Of a stretch of DNA of 64,000 bases, positions 1,829 to 64,000 are shown in pieces. Source of the stretch: a virus; the IMG/VR virus record IMGVR_UViG_3300030099_005838; one strand, given 5' to 3'. The notes below the pieces were generated by a model. The model did no database searches. It had not been told where the DNA came from and saw only the letters and a list, made by a program, of their open reading frames with translations. The position numbers were made by a program, and so were the translations under genes. The stretch's first letter is position 1. Every line of letters starts with the position of its first letter.

Positions 1829-2137
1829 ATGCCTTACACACAAGAAGAACTTCAACAAAACGAATATTATCAAAATTTGATAAATGCAGATGAACAGGCT
1901 TATGAAGCACAAAGAGAACTTTATAGGACTGCTTTCTTAAATAGTGGTGGTGAAGATAATGGTAGTTTGTTGACTAGAGATCAAGATGGGACAATATTAC
2001 TATTTGAAAATCCGTATACAGGTGAGTTGTATGAGGATGAAACTACATCCTATCTTAAAACGCTAGAAGTTGAACAGTATAAAATCAATGAAGATATATT
2101 AGATGAGGTTATTAATAGAAATATAACGGAACTATAA
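1829..2137 (+). CDS. Hypothetical acidic protein
   Basis: 102-aa ORF tightly coupled to both neighbours; no recognised motif. Confidence 0.6.
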   Translation: MPYTQEELQQNEYYQNLINADEQAYEAQRELYRTAFLNSGGEDNGSLLTRDQDGTILLFENPYTGELYEDETTSYLKTLEVEQYKINEDILDEVINRNITEL

Positions 2138-13524: not shown

Positions 13525-13711
13525 TGATGATGAATGGAAAGTTCACATTAACGATAACGACACTCTTAAAAAACTCAATGACGTTTTTGGCTTGGGTAGT
13601 TCTACTATATACTATGAAAGCGGTAGACTATCTCAAGAAACAGCTTGGGATGTCATAGTGCCAAATAGTAAAATTGATAAAGTTAAAAAATTCTTAAAGG
13701 ATAATACTTGA
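13493..13711 (+). CDS. Hypothetical protein
   Basis: 72 aa; overlaps both neighbours; no motif recognised. Confidence 0.55.
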   Translation: MAKQKNIWKFNDDEWKVHINDNDTLKKLNDVFGLGSSTIYYESGRLSQETAWDVIVPNSKIDKVKKFLKDNT

Positions 13712-16700
13712 TTAAAGAAAATGTTGTTAAAGTACCTTTTCGTAAGTTAAAATACATACATCATATTTCGGATATTCAAATCCGTAATCTAAAGCGACAT
13801 AAGGAATATGAAGAAGTATTCGAACGCACATACGAAGAAGTAAAAAAACATAAAGATAATGCCGTAGTCTATATTGGTGGTGATATAGCACACTCTAAAA
13901 CTGAAATGTCGCCTGAACTAGTCGATCAGCTCTCACGATTATTTAAGAACCTTGCAGATATATGTCCTACAATTATCATTGCAGGAAATCACGATTGTAA
14001 TCTCAATAATCGTTCTCGTATGGATGTACTCTCTCCTATCGTAAACAACCTACAACATTCTGATTTACACTATCTGAAACATAGTGGTGTTTATAAATGT
14101 GCCGATGTTAAATTTGTCGTATGGGATGTATGGGAAAAGGAAGATGATTACATTGAGGCTAAAGACTTTGATGGAGATACAAAGATAGTTCTCTTTCACG
14201 GAACAGTTGATAAGTCAGAAACGGATTTAGGATTCTTCTTACCATCGGATGTTAAGATTTCTAAATTCAAAGGTTATGATATGGGATTGCTAGGTGACAT
14301 CCACAAAAGACAGCATCTCAATAAAAAAGAAACTATATCTTACTGTGGCTCACTGGTTCAACAGAATCATGGGGAGGGGTTGAGCCACGGTTATTTACTG
14401 TGGGATGTTCCAAAGAGAAAGTCAAAGTATATAGAGATACCAAATGACTACGGCTATTATACCATCGACATCGAAAGTGGTAAAGTGCCAGATTGTCCTG
14501 ATATTCCAAAAAAAGCTCGTCTAAGAGTTAGAGTTTCAGATACTACACCATCCCAATTGAAGAAAGCTATGACTATGATTCATAGTCAATATGGGATTAA
14601 AGAAGTTTCAGTAACGAGAACAGATTCATTTACAGCTCAGGAAAAAGTCAGAGGACAGAGGATAACGGTTGGTGATGTAAGAGATGCAGACTATCAGTAT
14701 GGTTTGATAGAAGAGTATCTGAAACAAAATCATTATGTAGATGATGATACACTTATAGATATTAAGAAAATCAATAAAGATTTGAACTCAATGTTGCCTG
14801 CTGATGATTATAATCAAAGGGGTATAACTTGGGATGTAAAAAAGTTTGAATTTGATAATATGTTTAGTTATGGAGAAAACAACGTAGTTGACTTTACGAA
14901 ACTAAATGGCATAGTTGGGATATTTGCCCCCAACGCGAGTGGTAAATCTTCTTTATTGGATTCTCTTTCATTTTGTTTATTCGATACATCTTCTAGAGCT
15001 TATAAAGCATTGAACGTTCTGAATAATAAAAAAGATAATTTCTATTGTAAAGCCACACTAGAGGTTGAAGGTTGTGAATACTTTATAGAAAGAAAAGGTA
15101 AGAAACAAAGAAATGGTCATGTAAAAGTTGATGTAGACTTTTGGACATATGATGATGCCGGTGAAAAGCTATCTTTAAATGGCGACCAAAGACGAACAAC
15201 TGATGTAAACATTCGTAAGGTTATCGGTACATACGAAGATTTTATTATGACGGCATTATCATTACAGACAAACTCTACTGTTTTTATTGATAAGACACAA
15301 AAAGAAAGAAAAGACCTTTTGGCACAATTTATGGGTATAGGTGTTTTCGATCAGTTATATCATCTAGCATCTGAGGAGATATCGGATGTTAATTCTTTAC
15401 TAAAGTCATTTGCTAAAAACAATTACGATAAAGATTTAGCAGAAATTAAAACAGAGTTAGTTGATATGAAAAAAGATTCAAAAGAACTTACTTCAAAGAA
15501 AAAAGAATTGGTTTCTGATAAAAAAAGATATGACAAAAAGATAATCGATTTAACAAAGCAACTCAAAAAGGTTGATGAAACTGCGGAAAGTTTAGATGAG
15601 TTGCAAGAGCGTAAAATTAATCTTACAAATTCTTTGAATAAAGTAGATGAAAGGGTTGGTGAGATCGCTACATTATCAGAACAGTATACTGTAGAAGAAA
15701 CTGAACTGAATGAGAAGATAAAAATCTACAGAGAAAATGAGATTGATAAGAAATTTGCTCAATTAGAACAATATAAGTTAGATAAGAGTAACAACCAAAT
15801 TGAGATTGATAAACTGAAAATAGAAGTTCAGAACAAACTTGACAAAATAAATAAATTAGGTAACTTAGAATATGATCCTGATTGCTCTTATTGTATGGCG
15901 AATCCATTTACACTAGATGCTATGGAAACAAAAAAGAAACTAAATGATGATAAGATGTTAGCAGACACTTTCGTAAAACAATCTGATAATTTGGATGATA
16001 TAATAAATGGATTATCTCATATAACGGCACACAAAGAACAAATGGATGATTCTATAAACAGCCTGAGTTTGCTAACAACTAACATCAGTAAGTTAGATAG
16101 TGAGAAGAAACTTACTACTGAAAAAAGAAAGAATCTGATTAGTCAATTAGCTATAATAGAAGATAAGATTAATCTATATCACGAACAAGAAAAAGATATA
16201 ATCTTTAACAAAAGCCTACACAAAGAAATTGAGGATTCTCAACAACAGTCCGATGTAATAGAACAGTTCATAGATGATGCTGATAAGAAACTTCAAACTG
16301 TAAATGGTGAAATAAAAGTTTTAGAAACTCAAAGAAAAACTATTATACAAAATATTAAGAAGGTAGAGAAGTTAGAAGGTAAGTATGCTGCTTATCAATA
16401 CTATATGGATGCAATAAAAAGAGATGGTATACCTTACGAATTGATATCTAAGGCACTTCCAACTATAGAAGGTGCAGTAAACGATATCCTTTCACAGATA
16501 GTGGACTTCTCTATGATATTAGAAATGGATGGTAAAAATATCAATTGTTACATTGTTTACGATGATGATAATGTATGGCCTTTAGAATTATCTAGTGGTA
16601 TGGAACGATTTATCTCCTCTCTAGCCATGCGTGTGGGATTGATAAATGTGTCTAATCTTCCGGCACCAAACTTTTTAGCAATTGATGAGGGTTGGGGTAC

Positions 16701-16866
16701 TATGGATTCAGATAACCTAAACTCTGTTTACAATCTGTTTCAATACCTAAAATCACAATTTCAGTTTACGATGATTGTTTCTCATATAGATTCTATGAGA
16801 GATGCTGTTGATACCCTATTAGAGATAAAGAAAGAAAACACTTTTTCTAATGTTGCTTACGATTAG
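13708..16866 (+). CDS. Fused SbcD-SbcC (Mre11-Rad50; T4 gp47-gp46-like) recombination nuclease/ATPase
   Basis: N-terminal metallophosphoesterase motifs (HISDIQ, GGDIAH, AGNHD, FHG, LGDIH). Then Walker A APNASGKSS, a coiled coil with central CSYC zinc hook, signature LSSGME, Walker B AIDEG and H-loop VSH. TTG start. Confidence 0.9.
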   Translation: MIKENVVKVPFRKLKYIHHISDIQIRNLKRHKEYEEVFERTYEEVKKHKDNAVVYIGGDIAHSKTEMSPELVDQLSRLFKNLADICPTIIIAGNHDCNLNNRSRMDVLSPIVNNLQHSDLHYLKHSGVYKCADVKFVVWDVWEKEDDYIEAKDFDGDTKIVLFHGTVDKSETDLGFFLPSDVKISKFKGYDMGLLGDIHKRQHLNKKETISYCGSLVQQNHGEGLSHGYLLWDVPKRKSKYIEIPNDYGYYTIDIESGKVPDCPDIPKKARLRVRVSDTTPSQLKKAMTMIHSQYGIKEVSVTRTDSFTAQEKVRGQRITVGDVRDADYQYGLIEEYLKQNHYVDDDTLIDIKKINKDLNSMLPADDYNQRGITWDVKKFEFDNMFSYGENNVVDFTKLNGIVGIFAPNASGKSSLLDSLSFCLFDTSSRAYKALNVLNNKKDNFYCKATLEVEGCEYFIERKGKKQRNGHVKVDVDFWTYDDAGEKLSLNGDQRRTTDVNIRKVIGTYEDFIMTALSLQTNSTVFIDKTQKERKDLLAQFMGIGVFDQLYHLASEEISDVNSLLKSFAKNNYDKDLAEIKTELVDMKKDSKELTSKKKELVSDKKRYDKKIIDLTKQLKKVDETAESLDELQERKINLTNSLNKVDERVGEIATLSEQYTVEETELNEKIKIYRENEIDKKFAQLEQYKLDKSNNQIEIDKLKIEVQNKLDKINKLGNLEYDPDCSYCMANPFTLDAMETKKKLNDDKMLADTFVKQSDNLDDIINGLSHITAHKEQMDDSINSLSLLTTNISKLDSEKKLTTEKRKNLISQLAIIEDKINLYHEQEKDIIFNKSLHKEIEDSQQQSDVIEQFIDDADKKLQTVNGEIKVLETQRKTIIQNIKKVEKLEGKYAAYQYYMDAIKRDGIPYELISKALPTIEGAVNDILSQIVDFSMILEMDGKNINCYIVYDDDNVWPLELSSGMERFISSLAMRVGLINVSNLPAPNFLAIDEGWGTMDSDNLNSVYNLFQYLKSQFQFTMIVSHIDSMRDAVDTLLEIKKENTFSNVAYD

Positions 16867-43450: not shown

Positions 43451-43678
43451 ATGTCAATAAAGGTTGTCGTAAAGAATAATAATTACGAAAAAGCTCTCAG
43501 TATATTCAAACGTAAGGTAAAAGAATCAGGTATTCTATATGAATTGAGAGAAAGAGAACACTATAAAAAACCATCTATGCTTAAAAAAGAGATGAAAAAT
43601 AAAGCAAAAGCCCGTAATCATTGGAAAAAAGTCAAACTTTTAGAAGAAGATTCATACAAAAAGGGTAGAAAATTCTAA
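43451..43678 (+). CDS. rpsU: Phage-encoded 30S ribosomal protein bS21
   Basis: IKVVVKNNNYEKALSIFKRKVKESGILYELREREHYKKPS matches the bS21 pattern (V.V....E.ALxxFKRK...G...E.R.RE.YxKPS); GAGGT RBS. Confidence 0.9.
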   Translation: MSIKVVVKNNNYEKALSIFKRKVKESGILYELREREHYKKPSMLKKEMKNKAKARNHWKKVKLLEEDSYKKGRKF

Positions 43679-51889: not shown

Positions 51890-53515
51890 ATGGCAAATTG
51901 GAAAAAAGTAATTGTAAGTGGTTCTGCTGCAGAACTCGCTTCTTTGCAATTAGACACTGCGTTACCAGTAGCACAGGGTGGTATTGGTGCAACATCTTTG
52001 ACGGATAAAGCGGTTCTAATATCGCAAGATAGTGGGACTGATGCAGTAGGTTCACTTGCCTTATCGAGTAATGGAAGTTTAATAATAGGTGGTACTAGTG
52101 GCCCTGCCGTAGAAGCAGCTAGTGATTTAGCTGGTTCAGGTTTAGCAGCAACCACAGGTGATGGGACTCTAGCTTTATCAATTGGTGCAGGAACTGGTAT
52201 AGATGTTGCAGCAGACGCAATCTCAGTTGATGTATCCGACTTTATGACAAATGGTTCTAACAATAGAATTGTTACGGCTACTGGTGCTGATGCAATGAAT
52301 GCAGAAGCAAATCTTACCTTTGATGGTAGTGGGTTAAGTGTTACAGGACATGTAAGTGCAAGTGGTAATATGAGCGGTTCTGCGTCGTCCACAGGTTCTT
52401 TTGGTAGATTACAAACCGCAGGTGCATCGGAAATTGGAGGCAATCTCACTCAAAAGGGTGGTACTTTTCTAATAGAGAGTTCTAATATACCAACAATAAA
52501 GAGTTTGTCTGGTCATCCATTAGTCATAGACCAAAGAAATCCTGTTGCTCCAACCGCAATATACAATCAGTTGAGATTCAATTCTTCTTTTGGTGCAGAA
52601 TTAAGACAATTTTCTACAACTCTCAAACTTTCTAACTCAACAGGTAATGCAAATTATTGGAAATTTGAACAAAACACTTTATCCACACCAGACGGAGTGG
52701 GAAATGTTAGTGGTTCAGCGACTTCAACCGGTTCATTTGGATTTATTACAGGTTCGAAAATTCAAGGTACTTTCTTAGGTGACGGTAATGCATTAGATTT
52801 GAGTTCAAATTCAACAATAGGTAGTAATATTTTCAGTACAGTAGCAGTCTCTGGACAATCAAATATAGTAGCAGATAGTAACTCCGACACACTAACACTA
52901 GCTGAATCTACAGGTTTAGGAATAACTACAAATGCAGGAAATGATACCGTAACATTCGCATTAGATTCTGCACAGACTACAATACAAACTATTTTTAATA
53001 CAGGATTAATTGTTGGTAGAGCTTCAGGTGATACAACAATAGATTTTACTGCAGATGATGTCATTGTGTTCGATGCAGGTGCTTCGGAAAAAATGAGAGT
53101 GGATACATCTGGTGTAGATATTACGGGTGCCTTAACGGTTAGTACTAATGCAACAATACAAGGTGACTTGGTTGTAAATGGAAGTACGACAACTTTATCA
53201 ACAACTAATTTAGCAGTTGGAGACCAATTCATATTCGCAGCAACCGGTTCTGCGGGTTCTAATGTGGATGCTGGATTGGTAGTACAAAGTGGTTCGGCAG
53301 CAAATACAGGTTCAGCTTTTTATCATGATATAAATTCACAAAGATGGGCAGTTGCAAAAACAGTAGCATCAAATGCTGTAGCAGTAACTCCTAACCAATT
53401 TGTTGGAACAATAACTTTAAATTCAAACCCACCATCAGATTCAGATGGTGAGTATGGTGTCGGCGAAATGTGGATAGAAACCGATACACAGGATATCTTT
53501 ATTAGAACAGGTTAA
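51890..53515 (+). CDS. Fibre-type structural protein
   Basis: 541 aa; MANWKKVIVSGS N-terminus; two SGSxxSTGSFG repeats; LPVAQGGIGAT motif. Confidence 0.65.
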   Translation: MANWKKVIVSGSAAELASLQLDTALPVAQGGIGATSLTDKAVLISQDSGTDAVGSLALSSNGSLIIGGTSGPAVEAASDLAGSGLAATTGDGTLALSIGAGTGIDVAADAISVDVSDFMTNGSNNRIVTATGADAMNAEANLTFDGSGLSVTGHVSASGNMSGSASSTGSFGRLQTAGASEIGGNLTQKGGTFLIESSNIPTIKSLSGHPLVIDQRNPVAPTAIYNQLRFNSSFGAELRQFSTTLKLSNSTGNANYWKFEQNTLSTPDGVGNVSGSATSTGSFGFITGSKIQGTFLGDGNALDLSSNSTIGSNIFSTVAVSGQSNIVADSNSDTLTLAESTGLGITTNAGNDTVTFALDSAQTTIQTIFNTGLIVGRASGDTTIDFTADDVIVFDAGASEKMRVDTSGVDITGALTVSTNATIQGDLVVNGSTTTLSTTNLAVGDQFIFAATGSAGSNVDAGLVVQSGSAANTGSAFYHDINSQRWAVAKTVASNAVAVTPNQFVGTITLNSNPPSDSDGEYGVGEMWIETDTQDIFIRTG

Positions 53516-53530
53516 TTATAGAGGTTTTAT

Positions 53531-53737
53531 ATGGCTTTAAAAACAAGAGGTGGAATAAACATAGTAGGAAAGGAAGCTTATGTTCATCCACTTGAATTAG
53601 AGGATTTGGAATTTTTAATCAAAATGATTGCAAATACAAGTCATAAAGGTAGTGACATTGGTATGGTTATCAAAGTCACAGAAAAATTAAAAAAAGAGTA
53701 TGATGAAATAATTCAGATAAATACTCAAAAATCTTAA
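53531..53737 (+). CDS. Small helical protein (possible fibre assembly chaperone)
   Basis: 68 aa between two fibre genes; GAGG RBS. Confidence 0.5.
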   Translation: MALKTRGGINIVGKEAYVHPLELEDLEFLIKMIANTSHKGSDIGMVIKVTEKLKKEYDEIIQINTQKS

Positions 53738-53738
53738 T

Positions 53739-53779
53739 GTTGGCCCGTAAGGGAAGTGGGCTCATAAAGAGTAACCAAC
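53739..53779 (+). ncRNA. Candidate structured RNA element (three-way junction with GNRA tetraloop)
   Basis: GTTGG(53739-43)/CCAAC(53775-79) closes CCC-GTAA-GGG and GCTC-ATAAA-GAGT; a GC-rich island in an AT-rich genome. Confidence 0.5.
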
Positions 53780-53799
53780 CACGATTAGGAGTAAAGTAA

Positions 53800-56700
53800 A
53801 TGCCAAGTTGGAAAAAAGTAATAACATCTGGAAGTAATGCTGCACTGAATCACATAACTTCTTCCGGTAACATAAGTGGTTCGGCAACCTCAACAGGTTC
53901 GTTTGGCCAGTTAGACTTACTTAGTAAGGGAAGTTTAAGAATTAATCAAGGTGGTCGTGGTGACGAGGGTTCTGGAAATAACAATGGTATAACTTTATTT
54001 CAATCGACCACATTTACAGGTAATTTAACTACTACTGCTAATCTCTTCAGTCGTATTTTTGATGACAATAAATTAGTTTTAGCAAACCATTTTAATAACG
54101 CTGGTGGTGGGATATCCTTACGGACAATGGCTGGTGGCTCTCAAAACTCAGCTATTGATATAGCTGGAAATACAGGCATAACTACAATAAATAAAGGACT
54201 TGTAGTAAGAGACTCAGCAACAATAAACACCGATTTAATAGTTACAGGAAGTATAAGTGGTTCGTCATCCTCAACGGGTTCATTCAGTAGGGCAGAAATA
54301 GCTGGTACAGGTAAATTTGGTAAGATAGGTATCAATGTATCAAATCCAGGTGAAGCATTAGAAATCAATGCTGGTAAATTAAAATTCTCAGGTCATGCCT
54401 CAGGTTTCGGAGCAGGGATGATCGGAATGACATCCAATTTTTTAGCACTGGTTGGTGGTTCTAACGGTATAGTGATAAATGGTGATAGCAACGGACTAGA
54501 TAAAAATAGCTTTACATTCACTGCTGCAAAAATAAGTGGCTCATCAACCTCAACTGGTTCTTTTGGTAGACTGGAACTTGGACAATCAAATGGTGCTCCA
54601 ATGGCAGTATATGGAAATGTTGGTACTGCAGGTATAAGACTTGAAAATTATAAAGGCTATCTTGAAATTGATCCTCACACTTCCACAGTTAACATAACTT
54701 CAAATAAAAATGAGATACAATTTCAGAATAGAATTGGCGCCAGATTTGGAATTACAGGCTACTCAACTAGTGATTTAGTATTTTTTACAAATAGTGGGAA
54801 TACAACTCATGCAACTTTTAGTCCTACAACCGGAACATCATTTACGCAAAATATAACAGGTAGTGGAAACTTAGAGATAGCTGGAAACATAAGTGGTTCA
54901 TCAACCTCAACTGGTTCGTTTGGTATGGGGTATTTCAACCAATTAGGAATATTAAATAAAAATCCATCTATACAGACTTCAGATGCTGATGATTTGGTTA
55001 TTGGGGATGGTGCTAGTGGAGTAAGTAGAGGAATCACTATATTCACAAGTGCTGGTAATAGTCTTGGCTCAATTCGTTTTAGTGACGACACAAGTGGAAG
55101 TTCAAGAAGAAGAGGTGAAATAAGATATGACCATGCTGATGATACCTTAACATTAGCAGCTAGTAAGACTGAGGTATTGGAAATTACTAGTGGTGGTGGA
55201 TTAGAAGTATTAACTGGAAACATAAGTGGTTCATCAACATCAACTGGTTCGTTTGGCACACTCGAAACACATGCTAATTCATCTAGTTCCTTTGGTGGTA
55301 GATTGAAAATAACGGGTGATATTATACCAGAAAATGATAATAAATGGAGATTAGGAGTTCTTGCTGGTTTTGGTGCTTGGAAGGAAATTCATAGTTATCA
55401 ACTTAATTTAAACAATGGAACTATAACAGGTCAAAATGGTGGTGATATTCATTTAAAAGCTGGTAGCGGCCCCACCGGTCAGTTATTTTTAGCAAGAAGT
55501 GGTGGTGGTAATGGTGTAGGAGTTCATACAAATTCACCTAATAGTAATACATTTCATGTAGCGGCATCAGGTGGTATTTTTTCAGAAAACAACATAAGTG
55601 GTTCAGCAGGTTCAACTGGTTCGTTTGGTTCAGTCCACACATCGGGCCAAATAGGAATACAAACAACTGCACCAAAGAAAGCTCTTACGGTTAAAGCAAG
55701 CGGTAACGATGATGGAATAGCACTTCTTGCAAGTAATGGTCAATTTGCTGCTCTTCTTCACCAACAAGACAATGATGCCGGAATGTTAAGATTACATGAT
55801 GATTCTTCAACCACAAAAATTGCTTTTAATGCTGATGATGGAGCTGATTCCTTCATTAACAATGGTGGAAGCTTTGGCATCGGCACCACAAGTCCAGATG
55901 GGTTAGTACATGCCTTTAGTGGAAATGCATCTCAAACAGCAAATGCGGCTGCAAATCAACTAATTGCAGAAAATAACACAAATGCTGGTGTCTCTATTTT
56001 GTCAGGTACAAGTCATAGTGGTGCAATATATTTTGGAGATTCTGGTAATGCTAAAATAGGAACTATAATTTATGACCACGGAGATGAACAGTTAAGGATT
56101 GGAGTAAACGATGCTGTTATTTTAACATTAACGGATTCAAAAATAAGTGGTTCATCAACCTCAACTGGTTCGTTTGGAAAGTTGTCTGTTGGCAGTGGTA
56201 ATATCACAACTTCAGGTAATATGGTACTTGATGCAGATGGTGCACAGATTAGATTGCAGGATGGTGGAACAGAGTTTGGTAGGATAAGTAGAGTCTCTTC
56301 GGACCTGGTTATAAAATCAATAAGTAATAATAATGATATATTGTTTAAAGGAGTCGATGGTGGTGGTACAATAACTGCACTACAGTTGGATATGTCAGAG
56401 GGTGGTAATGCAATATTTAGTGGGAATGCTACTGTACCTGGAACTTTAGCAGTTGATACCAATACATTATATGTAGATTCTTCAGCAAATAAAGTTGGAA
56501 TAAAAAGAATTGATCCCCAGTTCGAATTGGATGTTATCGGTGATATAAGAGCTACTGGTGATGTCATTGCAAAAAGGTATGTAATTAGTTCTTCTGTAAG
56601 TCACATTACATCAAGTTTCTCAAGTGGCTCAACAATTTTTGGTGATACTATCGCCGATACACATCGGTTCACAGGCTCGTTGAGTGTAACTGGCAGTGGT

Positions 56701-59700
56701 GATAAAGTTTTTGAAGTTGCATCTTTTTCAGGTGCGGTGCCAAGATTTAGAATAGATAATGATGCTACCAATACAATTGGTATCAATACAACTCCATCAA
56801 CAGGTTTGGTTGCTATAAGGTCGACTGGTAATGACGCTAATCAACTTTCTTTTCTAAACGGAGCTGGTACACATACAGGTGGATTCTATGATGCGGGTGG
56901 AAGATTAATATTACAATTAAAAAATTCAAGTGGTGCTACAAAGGTAAATATTGAACCCGGCGGTGATTCATATTTTAATGGTGGCAATGTCGGCATCGGT
57001 ATCACAAGTCCCGAAGGTTTATTACATATCTTTACTGCAGATGCCTCAATCGCACCAAATGTTGATGCGGATGAATTAGTTGTAGAGAATAGCGGTAATG
57101 CTGGTATTTCTATATTAAGTGGAAACACTTCTAATGGTGCTATATACTTTGGTGATGCTCAAGACAATAATATAGGTATGATTGATTATGACCATGCACT
57201 TAATAAAATTTCTCTTACGGCTGGTGCTACAACTCTTCCTGTATTTTCAGTTACAAGTAACACTGCAGAGTTTGGTCCTACTGTACTAAAAGTAAGTGGT
57301 TCATCAACCTCAACTGGATCGTTTGGTTCGTTGGTTATTTCCGATGCTATTCAAGGAGGTGGGAATGTTAAAGGTGGAGACTTTCAAATTAGTGCAAATG
57401 ATTTAGTAGTAGACGGTTTGGCAAATGCCACAGAAAGAGGTTTAGTGATTAAACATAGTGGTATGACTAGCAATACGGTTTCCTTAGTTCAAGATGCGAA
57501 CAATTCAAGGGGTGAATTGAATACAAAAAACAGGTCACTTTTTATTCAGGCAGGAACTGATGGTTTTGGTTCTGGTGAGAGGTTTAGAATATTGGTGAAC
57601 CAAATCGCGAGTCAAGATATTTTAAATGATGGAACAGTATTATTTCCTGTTGCTAATCAAAAAATAAGTGGTTCATCAAGCTCAACGGGGTCGTTTGGGC
57701 ATTTATTTATTGGACATAAAACTGGAAATGGTCATGCTAAGATAAGACTTTCGGCCGAAGCAGATACTAGTGGTGAAAGAGCGATAGAATTTTTTGAAGG
57801 TTCATTTAACAGATGGAGAATAGCTAATAGGGGAGCTAATGGTAATTTTAATATAGAAAGAAGTACAGATGGTACTACATTTGAATCCACACCTGTTTTG
57901 AGTATAGAAAAATCAAGTGGAAATGTAGAATTTCCTGTTGCTAATCAAAAAATAAGTGGTTCAGCAACATCAACCGGTTCTTTTGGTAGAATTGATGTAG
58001 CAGGTAAATTGTTTGTAGGTGGTTCTGAAGTGGGTGCTGGTGGCGGTGGTGGTAGCGCGGATAACTTGGGTAATCATACTGCAACACAAGATTTAGATTT
58101 AAATAGTAAATCAATTAAAAATATAATTCACATTACAGGTAGTGGAAACATAAGTGGTTCTACAACAACCACAGCATCATTTGGAAGTTTACAACTTCAT
58201 GGAAAAACAATACACACCACTAAGGCAAGTAAGGTTGGATTAGGTACAACTAACCCGTTAGGAAATAAACTACACATTCATGTTGGTGATTCTGGCACAG
58301 ATACAGTCACAACAAACAGTAGTTTAGTAATAGAAAGTAATACAAACAACTTTATACAAATGTTGAATCCAAACGGAAACAATAGTGGTATTATATTTGG
58401 TGAGCATAATGATATAGATATTGCAAGTATATTACATGACGGTGGGGATAACTCATTAAGATTTAATGTTGCAGCTGCAGAAAGAATTAGAATAAACGGT
58501 TCAGGTAATGTCGGCATCGGCACAACAAGTCCTTCTAAAACATTTCATGTCTACGCAAATGTATCAAGCGATTATGCCGCTCTCGTAGAAAACGACCAGG
58601 CAACAAGCGGACATGGACTACAAATACATAGTGATGGTAATGGAAGTGGAACAATACTATTTGATGTAGATGCCGCTGGCTCAAGTAGATTTAGAGTCAG
58701 AGGTGATGGTAGTGTATTGGTTGGATTTACAACATCTCAAGCTGAAAAGTTAGCCGTCAATGGTGATTTCAGAGCAACTGGAAACATAAGCGGTTCATCA
58801 ACCTCAACCGGTTCGTTCGGACATGTAATGCAAGATGGTAAAGGTTTACCACCACAATTTACAACAGGAAGTTCTATATTCATTGGTGAAAATGCTGGTG
58901 CTTCTGATGATGGTTCTAATAATAGAAATATCGGAATTGGTAAAAATGCTTTAGACGCTGCTACTACAGGACATTTAAACATCGCTATTGGTGATGATGC
59001 TCTAACTGATGTTACAACAGGAAATCATAATGTAGCAATAGGATTTGAATCACAAAAAGATACGACAGGTGGAAATAATACATCTGTTGGATATAACTCA
59101 TTAGAATTTAACACTTCAGGAAATAACAATGTCGCCATAGGTTATGCTGCTGCGGGTGGATTTACTTATTCCGGAGCTGATAATGTTGCTATAGGATTTG
59201 CGGCACTTGGTGGAAATAATGTGTCAGGAGATTTTAATATTGCTATTGGGAAACAGGCATTATATGCTAATACTACTGCAGATGACAATCTGGCAATTGG
59301 AGACTTTGCACTTACCAGTGTAGGTACAGATGCTAACTCTAGTAGAAATCTTGCAATAGGTTCTGAAGCACTAAGACATATTGTATATACTGCTGGTTCA
59401 AGTGGTTTCAACAATACTGCTTTAGGTTGGAACGCAGGAACAAGGTTTGGAGATAATGCAGGAAACTTAACAAGTGCAAGTTATGGTGTATATATCGGAC
59501 ACACAACTTATCCACTTGAAAATAATTCATATAACGAAATATTAATAGGTAGTCAAGTAAGGGGTAAAGGTTCAAATACGGCTACAATAGGTGATGGTAA
59601 CATTACAGACATTTATTTGAGTCAAGACCAAGGTGCAACTGTTCATACAGGTAATGTGAGTGGTTCAGCAACTTCAACTGGATCGTTTGGTAGAGTTTTC

Positions 59701-62577
59701 TCTGCAGATGATATTGAGTTGAAGGGTAATGCGGTAATTTTCAATATTTCAGATGGTTTTGTAACAAACGCTGGCGGAGCAATGACCATACAAGGAACTG
59801 GTAATGTGGTATTGGATGCTGGAGCTGGTGCTGATGAAGTTACATTAACAACAACATCACTTACAACAACAGTACCCTTTACAGGTTCAAGTGCTACATT
59901 TTCAGATAATGTAGAAATAATAAGCAGTAATGCATCAAATACAAAATTATTAATTGAAAATAACCATGCAAGTGCAAACGCTTTATTGCAGATTGATTCT
60001 TCAAATGATAGAGATTCAGTTATTCAATTACTTGAAAATGGTACTGCAAAATGGGATATAAGAAATGATGGTAATGATTCTGATAAATTAAAAATATCTG
60101 ATGATGGTCTTGTTAGAGTTACCTTAGATCAATCAGGTCAATTCGGCATCGGCACCACAAGTCCTCAAAAAGATTTACATCTTCATCAAAACAACAGTAA
60201 TACATTATTTGAAGCGCTTACAATCCGAACCAACTCAGCCGGAGAAGGATTAACTTTAGGTATTAATTCTACAAACGATGGATTTATTACCAGTCAAGTG
60301 GGTACAGCTCTAAGATTAGCTGGTGATAGTCAATCATATGCAACCGGTCATTTGTTGATTTACTCTGGCTCTGGTGATATAGAAGCCGTCAAAGGAAACA
60401 TAAGTGGTTCATCAACCTCAACCGGTTCGTTTGGAAAACTATTAGGTGATGGTAGTGATTTAACAGGTATAACTTCTTTCGCTGGTTCAGCCGGAACTGA
60501 AACATCTTTTAGTGGCTCAGCAGCCTCAACTGGTTCGTTTGGTGCAATAGGAATATTGACTCCTCCTACAAAACCATTTCACATAAATTCTTCAGGTGTA
60601 CACAGACCTATGCTTATTAAGTCTACAGGAGATCAAAATACGTTTATCGTAATGGATTCTAATAGGTCTGGTGCTGCATCTTTTACGGGTGGTATTGTTG
60701 GAAAATGGAACGGAACAGAAGTTTCATCTATCTATTTCAGAACTGGTGCTGATACAACAAATAAAGACGACGGATACATATCATTTCAAACTGCTGGCGA
60801 CGGTTCAGCATCTGAAAGAATGATAATTACAACTGGCGGAAAAGTTGGAATCGGAGGTCAATCACATGCAAATGTTGATGGCCTACTTCATGTTCATACC
60901 GGTACTGCAGGTTCTGTAACTTCTCCAGCTGTCGCAGATGATTTAGTTGTAGAAAATAGTGATCATGCAGGAATATCGATATTATCACCAGATGATAAAT
61001 TTGGAACATTAGGCTTCGGTAGTCCATCAGACTCAATAGCGGCTATGGTAAGATTCGATGAAGCCAATAAACGAATGATTATTGGAACAGTTGAAGGAAC
61101 AAGTGCTGGAAACATAAGGTTTGTTGTTGGAAATGAAACTACTGCTGCAGAAATTGATAGCAGTAAAAATTTAACATTATTTGGAAACATAAGCGGCTCA
61201 TCAACCTCAACTGGTTCTTTTGGTTCATTGGTTGTTGCTGATAAAGTACAAGGTGATTTAACAGTTGTTGGTAATGTAGTGGCTGAACAATACATTATAT
61301 CATCTTCTGTGACTCATCTGACTCAATCGTTTAGTAGTGGTTCAACCATATTTGGTGATACTTCAGATGATACCCATCGATTCACAGGTTCATTAAATGT
61401 TGATGGAAATATACAAAGCACTTCAGGTGATAATTTAAGTATCGGTACATCTTGGTCACCCGCTGGAACTTATGGAGTAGGCCGCTTTCATGGAGCACAT
61501 AACGGTGGTGGTACTCGTGTTATGTTCAGTAATGCTAATAGTAGTGTTAGATACGGTATTGTCATGCATGGTTCAGATACAGGAACTGCCGATAAGTTAG
61601 GCATCGGTTTGTTACTGAATGAGAATGCTACTTTTGCAAATGCATCTCCAGCAATGACGATAGATTCTAGTAAAAACATCGGGATGGGAACTCAAAGTCC
61701 TTCCACTAAACTGCATGTTTTTAGTTCAGGAAATGGTGGAATAGAAATAGATGGTTCAGGTGGTGCTCCAACACTATTTTTTGATATTCCTGGTAATGAA
61801 CAAGGAAGAATTTACTTTCAAGAAGATGATACACTACTCGGTGGTATAGTTTATGAGACAACAAGCACAGATTATTTGTCTTTTAGAGTAGGAGGTTCAA
61901 GTGCTAATGTTGAAAGACTTCGTATCACAGGTGATAATAAGATAAGTGGTTCAGCAACCTCAACTGGTTCGTTTGGTTCAGTTGAATCTGCTGGAAATAG
62001 TAGAATAAAAGGATTATTAAATGTTGAGGGTTCAAATGGTTTTGCAATAGGTTCACTTGCAGATGTAAAGAGAATTGATTCTGCAGGAAGTAGTAATAAT
62101 ACATTTAGATTCTTAGCAGCTAACGGACAATTTACAGGTATACATGCCAAACAGGCACTTTTTACTGATAATGTTATAGTCGCTGGTAACGTAAGCGGTT
62201 CAGCAACCTCAACTGGTTCGTTTGGTGCATTATCCGTACCTGGTCAGGCCACCATAGGTAGTGTGGTAGAAGCGTCTTCTATTATGTATAAAGAAAATGT
62301 CAAACAGATAGAAAGTCCATTAGAAAAGATAACAAAACTTCGTGGTGTAGAATTTGATTATAAAAAAACTAACGAACATAGTATAGGTATGATTGCAGAA
62401 GAAGTAAATGAAATATTTCCTGAACTTGTTGCAAAAAATGAGGATGGGGATGTAACTGCAATGTCTTACACAAGAATGACTGCGGTGTTATTAGAAGCAG
62501 TAAAAGAATTATCTGCTGAAGTCAAAGAACTTAGGAAACTTAATAATTATAGTAAATCAGGAGATAAAAAGAAATGA
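53800..62577 (+). CDS. Long modular fibre protein with C-terminal intramolecular chaperone (peptidase S74-like)
   Basis: 2925 aa; 18 SGSxxSTGSFG joints; GIGTTSP motifs; N(V/I)AIGxxAL repeats at about 58850-59600; C-terminal SSIMYKENV...LEKITKLRGVEFDYK...IGMIAEEVNEIFPELV. Confidence 0.85.
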   Translation: MPSWKKVITSGSNAALNHITSSGNISGSATSTGSFGQLDLLSKGSLRINQGGRGDEGSGNNNGITLFQSTTFTGNLTTTANLFSRIFDDNKLVLANHFNNAGGGISLRTMAGGSQNSAIDIAGNTGITTINKGLVVRDSATINTDLIVTGSISGSSSSTGSFSRAEIAGTGKFGKIGINVSNPGEALEINAGKLKFSGHASGFGAGMIGMTSNFLALVGGSNGIVINGDSNGLDKNSFTFTAAKISGSSTSTGSFGRLELGQSNGAPMAVYGNVGTAGIRLENYKGYLEIDPHTSTVNITSNKNEIQFQNRIGARFGITGYSTSDLVFFTNSGNTTHATFSPTTGTSFTQNITGSGNLEIAGNISGSSTSTGSFGMGYFNQLGILNKNPSIQTSDADDLVIGDGASGVSRGITIFTSAGNSLGSIRFSDDTSGSSRRRGEIRYDHADDTLTLAASKTEVLEITSGGGLEVLTGNISGSSTSTGSFGTLETHANSSSSFGGRLKITGDIIPENDNKWRLGVLAGFGAWKEIHSYQLNLNNGTITGQNGGDIHLKAGSGPTGQLFLARSGGGNGVGVHTNSPNSNTFHVAASGGIFSENNISGSAGSTGSFGSVHTSGQIGIQTTAPKKALTVKASGNDDGIALLASNGQFAALLHQQDNDAGMLRLHDDSSTTKIAFNADDGADSFINNGGSFGIGTTSPDGLVHAFSGNASQTANAAANQLIAENNTNAGVSILSGTSHSGAIYFGDSGNAKIGTIIYDHGDEQLRIGVNDAVILTLTDSKISGSSTSTGSFGKLSVGSGNITTSGNMVLDADGAQIRLQDGGTEFGRISRVSSDLVIKSISNNNDILFKGVDGGGTITALQLDMSEGGNAIFSGNATVPGTLAVDTNTLYVDSSANKVGIKRIDPQFELDVIGDIRATGDVIAKRYVISSSVSHITSSFSSGSTIFGDTIADTHRFTGSLSVTGSGDKVFEVASFSGAVPRFRIDNDATNTIGINTTPSTGLVAIRSTGNDANQLSFLNGAGTHTGGFYDAGGRLILQLKNSSGATKVNIEPGGDSYFNGGNVGIGITSPEGLLHIFTADASIAPNVDADELVVENSGNAGISILSGNTSNGAIYFGDAQDNNIGMIDYDHALNKISLTAGATTLPVFSVTSNTAEFGPTVLKVSGSSTSTGSFGSLVISDAIQGGGNVKGGDFQISANDLVVDGLANATERGLVIKHSGMTSNTVSLVQDANNSRGELNTKNRSLFIQAGTDGFGSGERFRILVNQIASQDILNDGTVLFPVANQKISGSSSSTGSFGHLFIGHKTGNGHAKIRLSAEADTSGERAIEFFEGSFNRWRIANRGANGNFNIERSTDGTTFESTPVLSIEKSSGNVEFPVANQKISGSATSTGSFGRIDVAGKLFVGGSEVGAGGGGGSADNLGNHTATQDLDLNSKSIKNIIHITGSGNISGSTTTTASFGSLQLHGKTIHTTKASKVGLGTTNPLGNKLHIHVGDSGTDTVTTNSSLVIESNTNNFIQMLNPNGNNSGIIFGEHNDIDIASILHDGGDNSLRFNVAAAERIRINGSGNVGIGTTSPSKTFHVYANVSSDYAALVENDQATSGHGLQIHSDGNGSGTILFDVDAAGSSRFRVRGDGSVLVGFTTSQAEKLAVNGDFRATGNISGSSTSTGSFGHVMQDGKGLPPQFTTGSSIFIGENAGASDDGSNNRNIGIGKNALDAATTGHLNIAIGDDALTDVTTGNHNVAIGFESQKDTTGGNNTSVGYNSLEFNTSGNNNVAIGYAAAGGFTYSGADNVAIGFAALGGNNVSGDFNIAIGKQALYANTTADDNLAIGDFALTSVGTDANSSRNLAIGSEALRHIVYTAGSSGFNNTALGWNAGTRFGDNAGNLTSASYGVYIGHTTYPLENNSYNEILIGSQVRGKGSNTATIGDGNITDIYLSQDQGATVHTGNVSGSATSTGSFGRVFSADDIELKGNAVIFNISDGFVTNAGGAMTIQGTGNVVLDAGAGADEVTLTTTSLTTTVPFTGSSATFSDNVEIISSNASNTKLLIENNHASANALLQIDSSNDRDSVIQLLENGTAKWDIRNDGNDSDKLKISDDGLVRVTLDQSGQFGIGTTSPQKDLHLHQNNSNTLFEALTIRTNSAGEGLTLGINSTNDGFITSQVGTALRLAGDSQSYATGHLLIYSGSGDIEAVKGNISGSSTSTGSFGKLLGDGSDLTGITSFAGSAGTETSFSGSAASTGSFGAIGILTPPTKPFHINSSGVHRPMLIKSTGDQNTFIVMDSNRSGAASFTGGIVGKWNGTEVSSIYFRTGADTTNKDDGYISFQTAGDGSASERMIITTGGKVGIGGQSHANVDGLLHVHTGTAGSVTSPAVADDLVVENSDHAGISILSPDDKFGTLGFGSPSDSIAAMVRFDEANKRMIIGTVEGTSAGNIRFVVGNETTAAEIDSSKNLTLFGNISGSSTSTGSFGSLVVADKVQGDLTVVGNVVAEQYIISSSVTHLTQSFSSGSTIFGDTSDDTHRFTGSLNVDGNIQSTSGDNLSIGTSWSPAGTYGVGRFHGAHNGGGTRVMFSNANSSVRYGIVMHGSDTGTADKLGIGLLLNENATFANASPAMTIDSSKNIGMGTQSPSTKLHVFSSGNGGIEIDGSGGAPTLFFDIPGNEQGRIYFQEDDTLLGGIVYETTSTDYLSFRVGGSSANVERLRITGDNKISGSATSTGSFGSVESAGNSRIKGLLNVEGSNGFAIGSLADVKRIDSAGSSNNTFRFLAANGQFTGIHAKQALFTDNVIVAGNVSGSATSTGSFGALSVPGQATIGSVVEASSIMYKENVKQIESPLEKITKLRGVEFDYKKTNEHSIGMIAEEVNEIFPELVAKNEDGDVTAMSYTRMTAVLLEAVKELSAEVKELRKLNNYSKSGDKKK

Positions 62578-64000
62578 CGATGTTCATATCAAGTTCATCA
62601 ACCTCAACTGGATCTTTTGGCTTAGCACAATCAGAATTTGTACAGCATAGAGTTTTAAAAGGTTGGTATCAAGGTAATAATATATATGATTTACCAAGTG
62701 GCGGTAGTGCAGGAATTAGGATTGCACCACCAACACCCGCGAGTGGTAACAGCTCCCTACCTATTCAATTTACCAACAATGCTGTCCAAATACAAAGAAG
62801 TCATAATACTCTTAGATTGGAGGCTTTTCAAGGATCCGTTGCAATATATGACACACTTAATACAGAAACAATTGCTACATTTGGTAGAAGTGGCCTTACT
62901 TTTAGTTTGGGAAGCATATCAGGTATTACTCATGTATCAGCTAGCGGTAATATAAGTGGTTCATCAACCTCAACTGGTTCGTTTGGTACATTACGAGTTG
63001 GTACTAATGTAGGAAGTTTATCTTCAGGTTTAGTATTTGGAGATGGTGATACTGGTTTCTACGAACATGCTGACGATGATGTATTTTTCAAAAGAGGTGG
63101 TAATACTGTATTTAGAGCAAATACATCTTCACAATTAGACTTTGGTGTTCAACATTTATTTTTTAATACAACTGGTGGTTTTTTTATTACTACAGGAGCT
63201 GGTAGTGCAGCAGCACCAAACTATGTATTCAGAGGTGACCAAGATACAGGTATGTTCCGTATTGATGCCGATAGACTTGGTTTTAGTGCTGGTGGAGCAT
63301 TACAATTAGAAATATCTTCAAATAAAATAAGTGGTTCAGCAGCCTCGACTGGTTCATTTGGAAGAATAGAGGTACATTCTAATACTGGTTCGTTTGCACA
63401 TATTGAAAATTCTTCAAATATCAGAACTGCAAAATTATCGTTGACTGGCGGAGGTGGTGGAGACACTACATTTGTAGTAACAAATTTTGGCGGTGGTAAT
63501 TTATTGACATTGACAAATGCTGCAACATCTATACTATATGATGGTAGGCACGGACAATCTGTCGCGGGTTTATATTTTAATGTAAATAATACAGCTATGT
63601 TGGGTAACTTGGCATCATCCGCAACAGTACCAGCATTTAAATTTAAAGGTGATACAGATACAGGATTAGGTCGTGCAGATTCAAATCAATTATCATTAAT
63701 TACAGGTGGTGTAGAAGCTTTAAGGGTAACAGAAACATTGATAAGTGGTTCAGCAACCTCAACCGGTTCGTTTGGTGAGTTACAAGTCAGAGGTGCTGGT
63801 CAAGAAAAAATAAGTTTATTTGGAAATGCACAACAATTTATAAACTTTGGTGATGCCGCAGATAGTAATACTGGTATGATACAATATGACCATAATAATA
63901 ATCAGTTTCAATTTTATGCTAATGCTACAAATATATTAAGAGTTTTAGGTAGTGGATTTGTATTACCTTCTTCTAATGAAGGTGTTAGTTTAGGTTCGAC
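62574..64000 (+). CDS. Further modular fibre protein (3' end outside window; absent from the ORF track)
   Basis: ATGA overlap with the upstream stop. I read the frame open to base 64000: MTMFISSSSTSTGSFGLAQ...; it contains four repeat joints. Confidence 0.8.
   Translation, partial: MTMFISSSSTSTGSFGLAQSEFVQHRVLKGWYQGNNIYDLPSGGSAGIRIAPPTPASGNSSLPIQFTNNAVQIQRSHNTLRLEAFQGSVAIYDTLNTETIATFGRSGLTFSLGSISGITHVSASGNISGSSTSTGSFGTLRVGTNVGSLSSGLVFGDGDTGFYEHADDDVFFKRGGNTVFRANTSSQLDFGVQHLFFNTTGGFFITTGAGSAAAPNYVFRGDQDTGMFRIDADRLGFSAGGALQLEISSNKISGSAASTGSFGRIEVHSNTGSFAHIENSSNIRTAKLSLTGGGGGDTTFVVTNFGGGNLLTLTNAATSILYDGRHGQSVAGLYFNVNNTAMLGNLASSATVPAFKFKGDTDTGLGRADSNQLSLITGGVEALRVTETLISGSATSTGSFGELQVRGAGQEKISLFGNAQQFINFGDAADSNTGMIQYDHNNNQFQFYANATNILRVLGSGFVLPSSNEGVSLGS

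What the first reader, a model, noticed from the sequence alone, without database searches (positions are those of the whole stretch)
52370..63776. In-frame cassette array: 24 conserved DNA joints partition fibre genes into exchangeable modules
Seen in the sequence: a ~36-nt repeat separates unique modules at spacings of 108-1149 nt, always a multiple of 3 within a gene. Conservation extends to synonymous sites. Of the 22 copies from 53872 onward, 15 use TCG for the last Ser, 13 use ACC for the first Thr, and most use AGT-GGT-TCA, although the genome is AT-rich. Copies at 54889 and 62952, in different genes, are identical over 36 nt. Copies at 57664 and 57952 share a 34-nt identical stretch extending upstream. 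Many modules are diverged paralogs (GIGTxxP...LHV...AGISILS...FGD...YDH). Inference: the joints are frame-preserving recombination points allowing deletion, duplication and swapping of fibre modules, an integron- or shufflon-like way of varying fibre length and receptor range without a reverse transcriptase.
Basis: partly seen in the sequence, partly recalled or inferred. Interest (0 to 1): 0.8.

Follow-up and report, generated by a model that had tools for sequence, protein, structure and literature searches.

The report
Codon-locked recombination joints in phage fibres
The giant tail-fibre genes of an abundant uncultured marine T4-like phage are strings of unlike modules, each opened by the same ~36-base stretch spelt in the same (partly rare) codons, and related phages have swapped, lost or reordered modules at that stretch, so it is very likely an in-frame crossover point for rebuilding host-recognition fibres.

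Summary
There are 24 in-frame copies of a ~36-nt stretch encoding (N/K)ISGS(S/A)TSTGSFG in three adjacent fibre genes. The full locus, seen in an identical contig, holds 32 copies. Third-base choice is fixed well beyond codon usage: ACC 13/18 against 9% background, TCG 15/24 against 7%. Conserved residues of paralogous modules show no such excess.

The same spelling recurs in more than 500 copies on 137 viral or metagenome loci. Some of these phages have a capsid protein only 53-63% identical to this one.

Relatives carry the window's modules at 79-98% identity but in other orders and in other genes. Of 39 homology ends, 28 lie within 15 nt of a joint, against 5.9 expected. Two independent Tara assemblies are 99.9% identical to the window for 14-18 kb up to joint 61945. 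They then lack one 83-codon module and continue at 82% identity.

The integron- or shufflon-like reading is not supported. All copies are direct, and no site-specific recombinase was found. The arrangement is letter-identical in five independent assemblies. General homologous-recombination genes are present.

The closest known case is conserved-motif recombination in T-even gp37/gp38. This case differs in using one position-independent joint on a much larger scale.

The scan has reported the same principle before: for the GNVGIG joint of this genome, and on other DNA.

The parts
51890..53515 (+). Fibre gene A, 541 aa. N-terminal anchor MANWKKVIVSGS. Two weaker joints.
   Evidence: The exact protein is seen on 41 or more contigs.
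53800..62577 (+). Fibre gene B, 2925 aa. Anchor MPSWKKVITSGS, 18 J1 joints, 4 J2 motifs, C-terminal self-cleaving chaperone.
   Evidence: The exact protein is on 4-5 contigs.
62574..64000 (+). Fibre gene C. It runs off the window and is 1504-1506 aa in identical contigs. It starts by ATGA overlap with gene B and has a joint at codon 6.
52373..52405 (+). J1 copy (SGSASSTGSFG), gene A, weaker DNA match
52709..52741 (+). J1 copy, gene A, weaker DNA match. A relatives' homology break lies 24 nt downstream.
53875..53907 (+). J1 copy, first joint of gene B. Collinearity with 11 relatives' loci ends here.
54256..54288 (+). J1 copy, degenerate (ends ...SFS)
54535..54567 (+). J1 copy. Breakpoint in L121 and L202.
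54892..54924 (+). J1 copy. In L121 the DNA to its left is joined to the DNA to the right of joint 56146.
55225..55257 (+). J1 copy. Breakpoint in L091 and L202.
55597..55629 (+). J1 copy (SGSAGSTGSFG). Breakpoint in L202 and L035.
56146..56178 (+). J1 copy. Breakpoint in 6 loci. Contig L284 ends inside it.
57295..57327 (+). J1 copy. Breakpoint.
57667..57699 (+). J1 copy. Together with 57955 it brackets the 288-nt module B09, which L061 lacks.
57955..57987 (+). J1 copy. Breakpoint in 4 loci.
58153..58185 (+). J1 copy, the most degenerate (SGSTTTTASFG). It is the only gene-B joint that a relative's homology spans.
58789..58821 (+). J1 copy. Breakpoint. In contig 6037 the module that follows it lies in the next gene.
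59659..59691 (+). J1 copy. Breakpoint.
60403..60435 (+). J1 copy. Breakpoint.
60511..60543 (+). J1 copy. Breakpoint.
61192..61224 (+). J1 copy
61945..61977 (+). J1 copy. It is the crossover point of the natural variant haplotype L287/L288: 99.9% identity to its left, module B17 missing, 82% identity beyond.
62194..62226 (+). J1 copy, just ahead of the chaperone module
62589..62621 (+). J1 copy at codons 6-16 of gene C (SSSSTSTGSFG). In L287 homology ends here.
62955..62987 (+). J1 copy, gene C. Shares a 37-nt exact run with 54892.
63330..63362 (+). J1 copy, gene C
63744..63776 (+). J1 copy, gene C
55867..55896 (+). J2 motif (GSFGIGTTSP), a second joint type. Homology ends here too. Contig L283 ends inside it.
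56983..57012 (+). J2 motif (GNVGIGITSP)
58504..58533 (+). J2 motif (GNVGIGTTSP). Breakpoint in L061 and L201.
60136..60165 (+). J2 motif (GQFGIGTTSP). Breakpoint in L030.
62278..62430 (+). Peptidase_S74 intramolecular chaperone domain at the C-terminus of gene B (residues 2827-2877)
13708..16866 (+). Fused Mre11/Rad50-type nuclease-ATPase (Metallophos + SMC_N/AAA_23), comparable to T4 gp47/gp46. Part of the general recombination machinery.

Best explanation
J1 is a ~36-40-nt in-frame stretch (GGA AAC ATA AGT GGT TCA KCA ACC TCA ACT GGT TCG TTT GG). It encodes (N/K)ISGS(S/A)TSTGSFG and opens nearly every structural module of the adjacent tail-fibre genes of an uncultured marine T4-like myophage.

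The peptide is presumably a conserved structural seam of a trimeric fibre. Its DNA is kept almost letter-identical in every module, in every fibre gene, and across a whole clade of phages.

This short patch of identity, always in the same codon phase, is where general homologous recombination crosses over. The crossover can be between co-infecting relatives or between different positions of the locus. The enzymes would be a phage RecA/UvsX-type recombinase with an Mre11/Rad50-type nuclease. The products are in-frame module replacements, losses, gains, reorderings and transfers between genes, which change fibre length and probably receptor range.

Shown here: the repeat, the third-base lock, breakpoints at joints in relatives and in a 99.9%-identical haplotype, the presence of homologous-recombination genes, and the absence of site-specific recombinases from what was scanned.

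Inferred: that homologous recombination acts at the joint, that the lock is either selected for recombination or kept up by it, and that the swaps alter host range.
For: (1) There are 24 in-frame direct copies, against 0 expected by chance.

(2) Third bases are locked. Codon identity among same-class codon pairs is 0.656 against 0.467 expected. The rare codons ACC and TCG give P=7e-11 and P=4e-12. Conserved residues of paralogous modules outside the joints give 0.479 against 0.469, which is saturation.

(3) The lock holds across the clade. In 422 copies on 117 IMG/VR loci, TCG is 54% against a 4% background and ACC is 42% of Thr against 8%. In a set found by gene-A protein homology rather than by joint DNA, TCG is 42/64 and ACC 22/37. 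Carriers have a capsid protein down to 53% identity. Joints differ about as much within a genome (4.48 nt) as between genomes (4.80 nt).

(4) Relatives hold the window's modules at 79-98% identity but in other orders and genes. Of 39 homology ends, 28 lie within 15 nt of a joint, against 5.9 expected (P about 1e-15). Only the most degenerate joint in gene B is spanned.

(5) Alignments at base resolution show the breaks. Four phages are identical through the anchor and the first joint and unrelated directly after TTTGG. L121 equals the left flank of joint 54892 joined to the right flank of joint 56146. L061 lacks the 288-nt module bracketed by a 34-nt exact repeat.

(6) A natural recombinant exists on a near-clonal background. 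L287 and L288 come from two different Tara samples and differ from each other at 10 positions. They are 99.89% and 99.97% identical to the window for 14-18 kb up to position 61980, inside a joint. They then skip module B17 and continue at 82%, and they become unrelated after the next joint.

(7) Recombination genes are present: an Mre11/Rad50-type gene in the window and RecA/UvsX-like genes in two relatives' records, including the contig of L061.

(8) There is precedent. Exchanges within or near conserved motifs of T-even adhesin genes are described in PMC3157838, which cites Tetart 1996 and 1998. Conserved DNA motifs flanking receptor-binding domains have been proposed as recombination hotspots (PMC10408124).
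Against: The arrangement is letter-identical in five independent assemblies, so events are rare on the population time scale.

Exact identity between joint copies is short: at most 37 nt, with a median longest run of 12 nt. As I recall it, Singer et al. 1982 found that T4 recombination falls steeply below about 50 bp.

Most comparators are single short-read metagenome contigs. The 2601-aa relative protein is on one contig only, and two contigs of the window's own phage end inside joints. Some mosaic orders could therefore be assembly errors.

The data cannot tell whether the codon lock causes recombination at joints or results from it.

The structure of the joint is unknown. Both AlphaFold models were of low confidence, and no solved structure carries the motif.

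Eleven of 39 homology ends are not at J1 or J2.
Confidence: 0.8

Rival explanations
1. Selection at domain boundaries only. Recombination is illegitimate or random along the gene, and only products joined at the structural seam fold and survive. The DNA identity of the joint plays no mechanistic part.
For: The peptide is strongly conserved: S, G, S, T, S and F are invariant in 23 aligned copies. It sits at every module start, so viable chimeras would have to break there anyway. Eleven of 39 homology ends lie elsewhere.
Against: This does not explain the third-base lock on rare codons, which is absent from other conserved residues and holds across the clade. The one joint whose DNA has decayed while its peptide remains recognisable (58153) is also the one that homology spans, though this is a single case.
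Confidence: 0.08
2. The codon lock reflects selection on translation or RNA, for example a rare-codon pause at each domain boundary that aids co-translational folding. Recombination at the joints is then an incidental result of the identity.
For: The two most deviant positions use rare codons: ACC at 9% and TCG at 7% of their class. They sit at module boundaries.
Against: Common codons are locked too. TCA is used in 20-21 of 23-24 copies at two positions, and in all 12 Ser codons at a third position that is Ala in other copies, against 47% background. ATA is used in 18/18 and AAC in 9/13. A pause would need rare codons but not the same ones at the same position in more than 500 copies. This rival was not tested directly.
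Confidence: 0.07
3. A programmed cassette system of the integron, shufflon or diversity-generating-retroelement kind, in which a dedicated enzyme recognises the joint.
Against: All copies are direct and on one strand. No Phage_integrase, Resolvase or reverse-transcriptase hit appeared among the window ORFs scanned. No integrase or resolvase was found in five relatives' records. Five assemblies carry identical arrangements. The whole genome could not be searched.
Confidence: 0.03
4. The mosaicism is an artefact. Short-read assemblers jump between phages, or between positions, at the repeated joint.
For: Two contigs of the window's phage end inside joints. The two variant contigs also end about 1.1 kb into gene C'. 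Most relatives' arrangements rest on one contig.
Against: The window's arrangement is reproduced exactly by MEGAHIT and SPAdes assemblies of different samples. The variant junction is reproduced in two samples, and the two contigs differ by 10 SNPs. Across diverged contigs (80-99% identity), 51 joints are spanned collinearly. Exact repeats are at most 37 nt, which is shorter than the reads and the final k-mers.
Confidence: 0.03

Closest known systems
Conserved-motif recombination in T-even distal tail-fibre and adhesin genes (gp37 'His boxes', gp38 glycine-rich motifs). Tetart et al. 1998 J Mol Biol 282:543, as listed in the references of PMC10408124; Trojet et al. 2011, PMC3157838.
   Same: Short in-frame motifs are conserved inside otherwise hypervariable fibre genes of T4-type phages. 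Natural and laboratory exchanges occur within or near them. The enzymes are general homologous-recombination enzymes, not a site-specific one. The result is chimeric host-recognition proteins.
   Different: In gp38 the motifs differ from each other and keep a fixed order, so segments are swapped like for like. Here one and the same joint recurs 32 times in four genes. Modules can therefore be deleted, inserted, reordered and moved between genes. The joint is locked at third bases, including rare codons, across a clade with 53% capsid identity. No sequence similarity to gp37 or gp38 was found.
Conserved DNA motifs flanking receptor-binding domains of lytic E. coli phages, proposed as recombination hotspots (Virol J 2023, PMC10408124)
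   Same: DNA-level conservation brackets an exchangeable host-recognition unit and reaches across taxonomic borders.
   Different: There, two or three motifs of 20-95 bp flank one domain per gene. Here a single repeated joint divides giant genes into about 30 units.
The GNVGIGTTSP ('J2') joints of the same genome and of other fibre genes, reported earlier in this scan (e1-5810313, e1-5711522)
   Same: Same locus, same logic. In my data homology ends also fall on J2.
   Different: J2 is a different motif, with GC-rich codons, and sits inside one module family. J1 is the more general boundary: 24 copies in the window against 4.
Shufflons and integrons
   Same: Repeats bound exchangeable units of a surface or adhesion function.
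   Different: Those systems need a dedicated recombinase and specific (inverted or hairpin) sites, and they switch at high frequency. None of these features is present here.

Membership tests
Conserved-motif homologous recombination in tail-fibre genes (T-even gp37/gp38 type) | A short motif conserved at DNA level inside otherwise divergent fibre genes | tested here: met
Conserved-motif homologous recombination in tail-fibre genes (T-even gp37/gp38 type) | Breakpoints of natural chimeras fall in or next to the motif | tested here: met
   28 of 39 ends against 5.9 expected; alignments
Conserved-motif homologous recombination in tail-fibre genes (T-even gp37/gp38 type) | General recombination machinery is present and no dedicated site-specific enzyme | tested here: inconclusive
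   An Mre11/Rad50-type gene lies in the window. RecA/UvsX-like genes occur in 2 of 5 relatives' records. No integrase or resolvase was found. The window's whole genome is not held, and the relatives' records are 26-70% complete.
Conserved-motif homologous recombination in tail-fibre genes (T-even gp37/gp38 type) | Recombinants at the motif obtained in crosses | not testable with these tools
   No cultured host or phage. No isolate phage matches.
Shufflon (Rci-type) | Inverted repeats bounding invertible segments | tested here: not met
   All matches are on the + strand
Shufflon (Rci-type) | An adjacent tyrosine recombinase | tested here: not met
   No PF00589 hit among the window ORFs scanned or in 5 relatives' records
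Integron | IntI integrase with attC-bounded promoterless gene cassettes | tested here: not met
   No integrase. The units are in-frame pieces of one ORF, not genes.
Diversity-generating retroelement | A reverse transcriptase with a template/variable repeat pair | tested here: not met
   No reverse-transcriptase family among the Pfam hits of the window ORFs. The repeats are conserved, not adenine-mutated.
Trimeric fibres ending in a Peptidase_S74 intramolecular chaperone | A C-terminal S74 domain above the Pfam cut-off | tested here: met
   PF13884, 44.6 bits against a cut-off of 22, residues 2827-2877. Match to PDB 6f45 at E=0.0015.
T4-like (distant, 'Far-T4'-type) myophage | Gp23 capsid, gp20 portal, T4-type terminase, gp15- and gp13-like proteins | tested here: met

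The most novel reading that the evidence does not exclude
J1 is a clade-wide standard connector held in one DNA spelling by selection for evolvability. Because the same joint is used at every boundary, in every fibre gene and in every phage of the clade, any module can be placed anywhere in frame. That would make it a natural position-independent assembly standard for host-recognition fibres, in contrast to the like-for-like swaps known from T-even phages.
Probability: 0.35. Interest if true: 0.75.

Novelty: new variant of a known kind. Interest (0 to 1): 0.6.

Why it matters
Tail fibres decide which cells a phage can infect. How the abundant uncultured marine phages diversify their fibres is largely unknown.

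This is a very clear natural case. About 30 modules in four giant genes are separated by one universal, codon-locked joint. Both the long-term outcome (fully reshuffled fibres on 84-94% identical backbones) and a recent event (a 99.9%-identical haplotype recombined at a joint) are visible in public ocean metagenomes.

It gives a concrete, testable sequence for asking whether phages maintain recombination sites by selection. It also warns that such loci break or mislead short-read assemblies. Finally, it suggests a natural design rule for modular fibre engineering in laboratory phages.

Tried and rejected
Structure of the joint. An AlphaFold2 monomer of gene A with a 36-sequence alignment gave mean pLDDT 53, with the joints in unstructured low-confidence regions. 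A single-sequence fold of gene B residues 355-610 gave pLDDT 39.5. Neither model is usable, so no fold search was run. Complex prediction (a trimer of that segment) was not available. A profile of the 29-residue joint context against PDB sequences gave only chance hits, E of 0.2 or more. The whole gene B matched only through its chaperone domain.

Whole-genome searches were impossible because no genome is held for this window.

Isolate phages. Megablast of the locus found nothing. tblastn of gene C found only a weak Synechococcus phage S-SM2 hit.

Literature. The string STGSFG occurs in no paper of the library. Nothing was found on fibres of 'Far-T4' phages.

Reciprocally verified swaps. I looked for cases where both arrangements are each confirmed by a second, diverged contig. 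None turned up at strict thresholds among the loci held at that point, L001-L280. The L287/L288 pair, fetched later, gives such support for one variant junction.

The exact 2601-aa relative protein is on one contig only.

Simple recent duplication was rejected because the modules are unrelated or only 24-45% identical while the joints are near-identical.

Homogenisation purely within a genome was rejected because joints are nearly as alike between genomes as within them.
Full report
**What the window is.** All long ORFs lie on the + strand, and GC content is about 35%. The window encodes these T4-type proteins:
- a Gp23-type major capsid protein (44924-46591)
- a Gp20-type portal
- a T4-type large terminase
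- a prohead protease
- a gp13-like protein and a gp15-like protein

The capsid protein is 47-56% identical to those of Flavobacterium phage immuto, Microcystis phage Mel-JY01 and an uncultured phage. It is only about 26% identical to T4-like coliphage capsids. This is therefore a distant T4-like myophage, uncultured and marine. No isolate phage matches the fibre locus.

The phage is abundant and near-clonal. The window is 100.000% identical over 11-21 kb to contigs assembled independently from several Tara Oceans runs, by both MEGAHIT and SPAdes.

**The locus.** Downstream of the neck and baseplate genes lie four fibre genes:
- Gene A: 51890-53515, 541 aa.
- Gene B: 53800-62577, 2925 aa. It ends in a Peptidase_S74 intramolecular chaperone.
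- Gene C: starts at 62574 by ATGA overlap with gene B. It is 1504-1506 aa in identical contigs.
- Gene D: beyond the window, at least 2175 aa, also S74-terminated.

Genes A and B share an N-terminal anchor, M(A/P)(N/S)WKKVI(V/T)SGS.

**The observation.** A protein-level search finds 24 in-frame copies of SGS(S/A)TSTGSFG, usually preceded by (N/K)I. Two are in gene A, 18 in gene B and 4 in the visible part of gene C.
- The identical contig L285 shows 5 more copies in gene C and 3 in gene D, which makes 32 in the locus.
- A 32-nt consensus with up to 3 mismatches matches 19 times, against 0 in shuffles. All matches are on the + strand and inside the fibre genes.
- The other giant ORFs of the window have no copy.

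The choice between AGT and TCN serine codons is fixed by protein-level selection, because switching classes needs two steps. AGT also already makes up 88% of AGY codons.

The free third bases are the real test, and they are locked:

| Position | Observed | Background within codon class | P |
|---|---|---|---|
| First Thr, ACC | 13/18 | 8.6% | 7e-11 |
| Last Ser, TCG | 15/24 | 7.1% | 4e-12 |
| Ser (TCA), two positions | 20-21 of 23-24 | 47% | 1e-4 to 1e-5 |
| Ser/Ala position (TCA) | 12 of 12 Ser codons | 47% | 1e-4 |

Overall, same-class codon pairs are identical in 65.6% of comparisons, against 46.7% expected. As a control, identical residues in aligned paralogous modules outside the joints give 47.9% against 46.9% expected, so those sites are saturated. 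The modules themselves are unrelated or only 24-45% identical. Simple recent duplication is therefore excluded.

**The lock is clade-wide.** I scanned IMG/VR with a pattern degenerate at all third bases.
- On those loci, 422 protein-level copies use TCG at the last Ser in 54% (background 4%) and ACC in 42% of first-Thr codons (background 8%).
- A set ascertained by gene-A protein homology, not by joint DNA, gives the same result: TCG 42/64 and ACC 22/37.
- Carriers include phages whose capsid protein is only 53-63% identical to the window's, and whose gp15-like protein is only 37-48% identical. At that distance, synonymous sites cannot be identical by descent.
- Joints differ almost as little between genomes (4.80 nt of 33) as within a genome (4.48). 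The spelling is therefore a shared standard of the clade, not mainly the result of homogenisation within a genome.

**Do relatives break synteny at the joints?** Yes. Contigs whose backbone genes are collinear with the window at 84-94% nucleotide identity lose collinearity at the first joint of gene B. Beyond it they carry the window's modules at 79-98% identity, but in different order, number and even gene. Examples:
- In contig 6036 (L117/L121), the module ending at joint 54892 is followed directly by the module that starts at joint 56146. At base resolution the switch lies inside the joint.
- In contig 5510, the module 54892-55225 is followed by the module 60403-60511.
- In contig 6037 (L061), modules 57955-58544 precede 57295-57698. 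The module 58807-59691 sits in the next gene, after the chaperone-terminated one.
- L061 lacks the 288-nt module that the window brackets with a 34-nt exact repeat.
- L201, L202 and L061 differ from each other by single modules inserted between two joints.

Statistically, 28 of 39 ends of module-scale homologies lie within 15 nt of a J1 or J2 joint. About 5.9 are expected, and the maximum in 5000 permutations was 15 (binomial P about 1e-15).

At that stage 280 loci were held (L001-L280, before the identical and variant contigs were fetched). Among them, no homology spans a gene-B joint with at least 80 nt on both sides, with one exception: the most degenerate copy, at 58153. In an all-against-all comparison, diverged homologies stop at 119 joints and span 51.

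**A recent event on a near-clonal background.** The protein cluster of gene B contains a 2841-aa form on two contigs from different Tara samples.
- L287 is 99.89% identical to the window over 14,181 nt, and L288 is 99.97% identical over 18,181 nt. In both, identity runs up to position 61980, inside joint 61945.
- Both then lack the 83-codon module B17 and continue with a chaperone module only 82% identical to the window's.
- After the next joint, at codon 6 of gene C, they are unrelated to the window.
- The two contigs differ from each other at 10 positions, so they are independent observations of one haplotype.

This is the signature of homologous exchange with a diverged donor, with the crossover in the joint.

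**Mechanism.**
- All copies are direct.
- No integrase, resolvase or reverse transcriptase appeared among the window ORFs scanned.
- None was found in five relatives' records, which are 26-70% complete.
- The window encodes a fused Mre11/Rad50-type protein, the counterpart of T4 gp47/gp46.
- Two relatives' records, including the L061 contig, encode RecA/UvsX-like proteins.
- The arrangement is invariant across five assemblies.

The best reading is rare general homologous recombination at a short, phase-locked patch of identity. It is not a programmed integron- or shufflon-like switch.

The data do not settle why the spelling is locked. It may be selected because it promotes exchange, or it may be kept uniform by the exchange itself. 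A translational-pause explanation fits the two rare codons. It does not fit the equally locked common codons.

**Caveats.**
- Most comparators are single short-read contigs.
- Contigs of this phage sometimes end inside joints, so the repeat does trouble assemblers.
- Against a pure artefact: exact repeats are at most 37 nt, the window's order is reproduced by two assemblers in several samples, and the variant junction is reproduced in two samples.
- The three-dimensional role of the joint peptide remains unknown.

**Comparison with what is known.** Recombination within or near conserved motifs of T-even fibre and adhesin genes is established (PMC3157838, which cites Tetart 1996 and 1998). Conserved DNA motifs flanking receptor-binding domains have been proposed as hotspots (PMC10408124).

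What is new here is the form. A single universal joint is repeated about 32 times across four giant genes and locked at synonymous sites across a broad uncultured clade. It permits position-independent shuffling rather than like-for-like swaps.

Earlier follow-ups in this scan reached the same conclusion for the GNVGIG joint of this genome and for joints in other genomes. My data also show homology ends at that second joint.

Noticed in passing
window 55867, 56983, 58504, 60136: A second joint type, G-x-(V/F)-G-I-G-T-T-S-P, spelt GTCGGCATCGG. Relatives' homologies also start or stop here (L054, L035, L061, L201, L030). Gene D beyond the window has 7 copies.
   Followed up: partly
window 56623-56687 and 61336-61400: A third conserved block, 65 nt at 78% identity, encoding SGSTIFGDT..DTHRFTGSL. 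Several homologies that do not end at J1 or J2 end near it (56700, 61303). It may be a further crossover site.
   Followed up: no
window 53800-53874: The first 75 nt of gene B (anchor MPSWKKVITSGSNAALNHITSSGN) are almost letter-identical in four phages whose neighbouring gene A is only 81-94% identical. The anchor is under unusually strong conservation, possibly at DNA level too.
   Followed up: partly
L283 (end = window 55886) and L284 (end = window 56171): Two independent contigs of this same phage stop inside a J2 joint and a J1 joint. The repeat fragments short-read assemblies of this locus.
   Followed up: partly
window 62574-62621: Gene C has no WKKV anchor. It overlaps the stop codon of gene B (ATGA) and opens with a joint at codon 6. 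In the variant haplotype the homology ends at this joint.
   Followed up: partly
window 59020-59200 (module B12, 58789-59658): Three copies of a GN-x-NVAIG-x-x-A repeat. Two distant homologues of gene B (P0143, P0217) carry Pfam PF05658, which as I recall is the YadA head repeat. This module may therefore be an adhesin-head-like beta-roll. Pfam itself did not hit gene B here.
   Followed up: no
window 43451-43678: A ribosomal protein bS21 gene (PF01165 in the gene calls of the identical contig L281) lies among the head genes.
   Followed up: no
window 17103-29711, 2137-8874 and 30130-34485: Giant ORFs of 4202 aa and 2245 aa have no Pfam match at all. The 4202-aa ORF has one GNVGIGTTTP motif. 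A 1451-aa ORF carries AAA_33 kinase-like and cytidylyltransferase-like domains.
   Followed up: no
L281-L285, L287, L288: The phage genome is letter-identical over 20 kb in several Tara Oceans runs from two projects. This points to a widespread, near-clonal population with at least two fibre haplotypes.
   Followed up: partly
window 52167-52765 (gene A): In L121, L202 and L203 the middle of gene A, which holds both weak joints, is replaced while both ends stay 81-87% identical. One break lies 24 nt after joint 52709. The other (52167) is not at a joint.
   Followed up: partly
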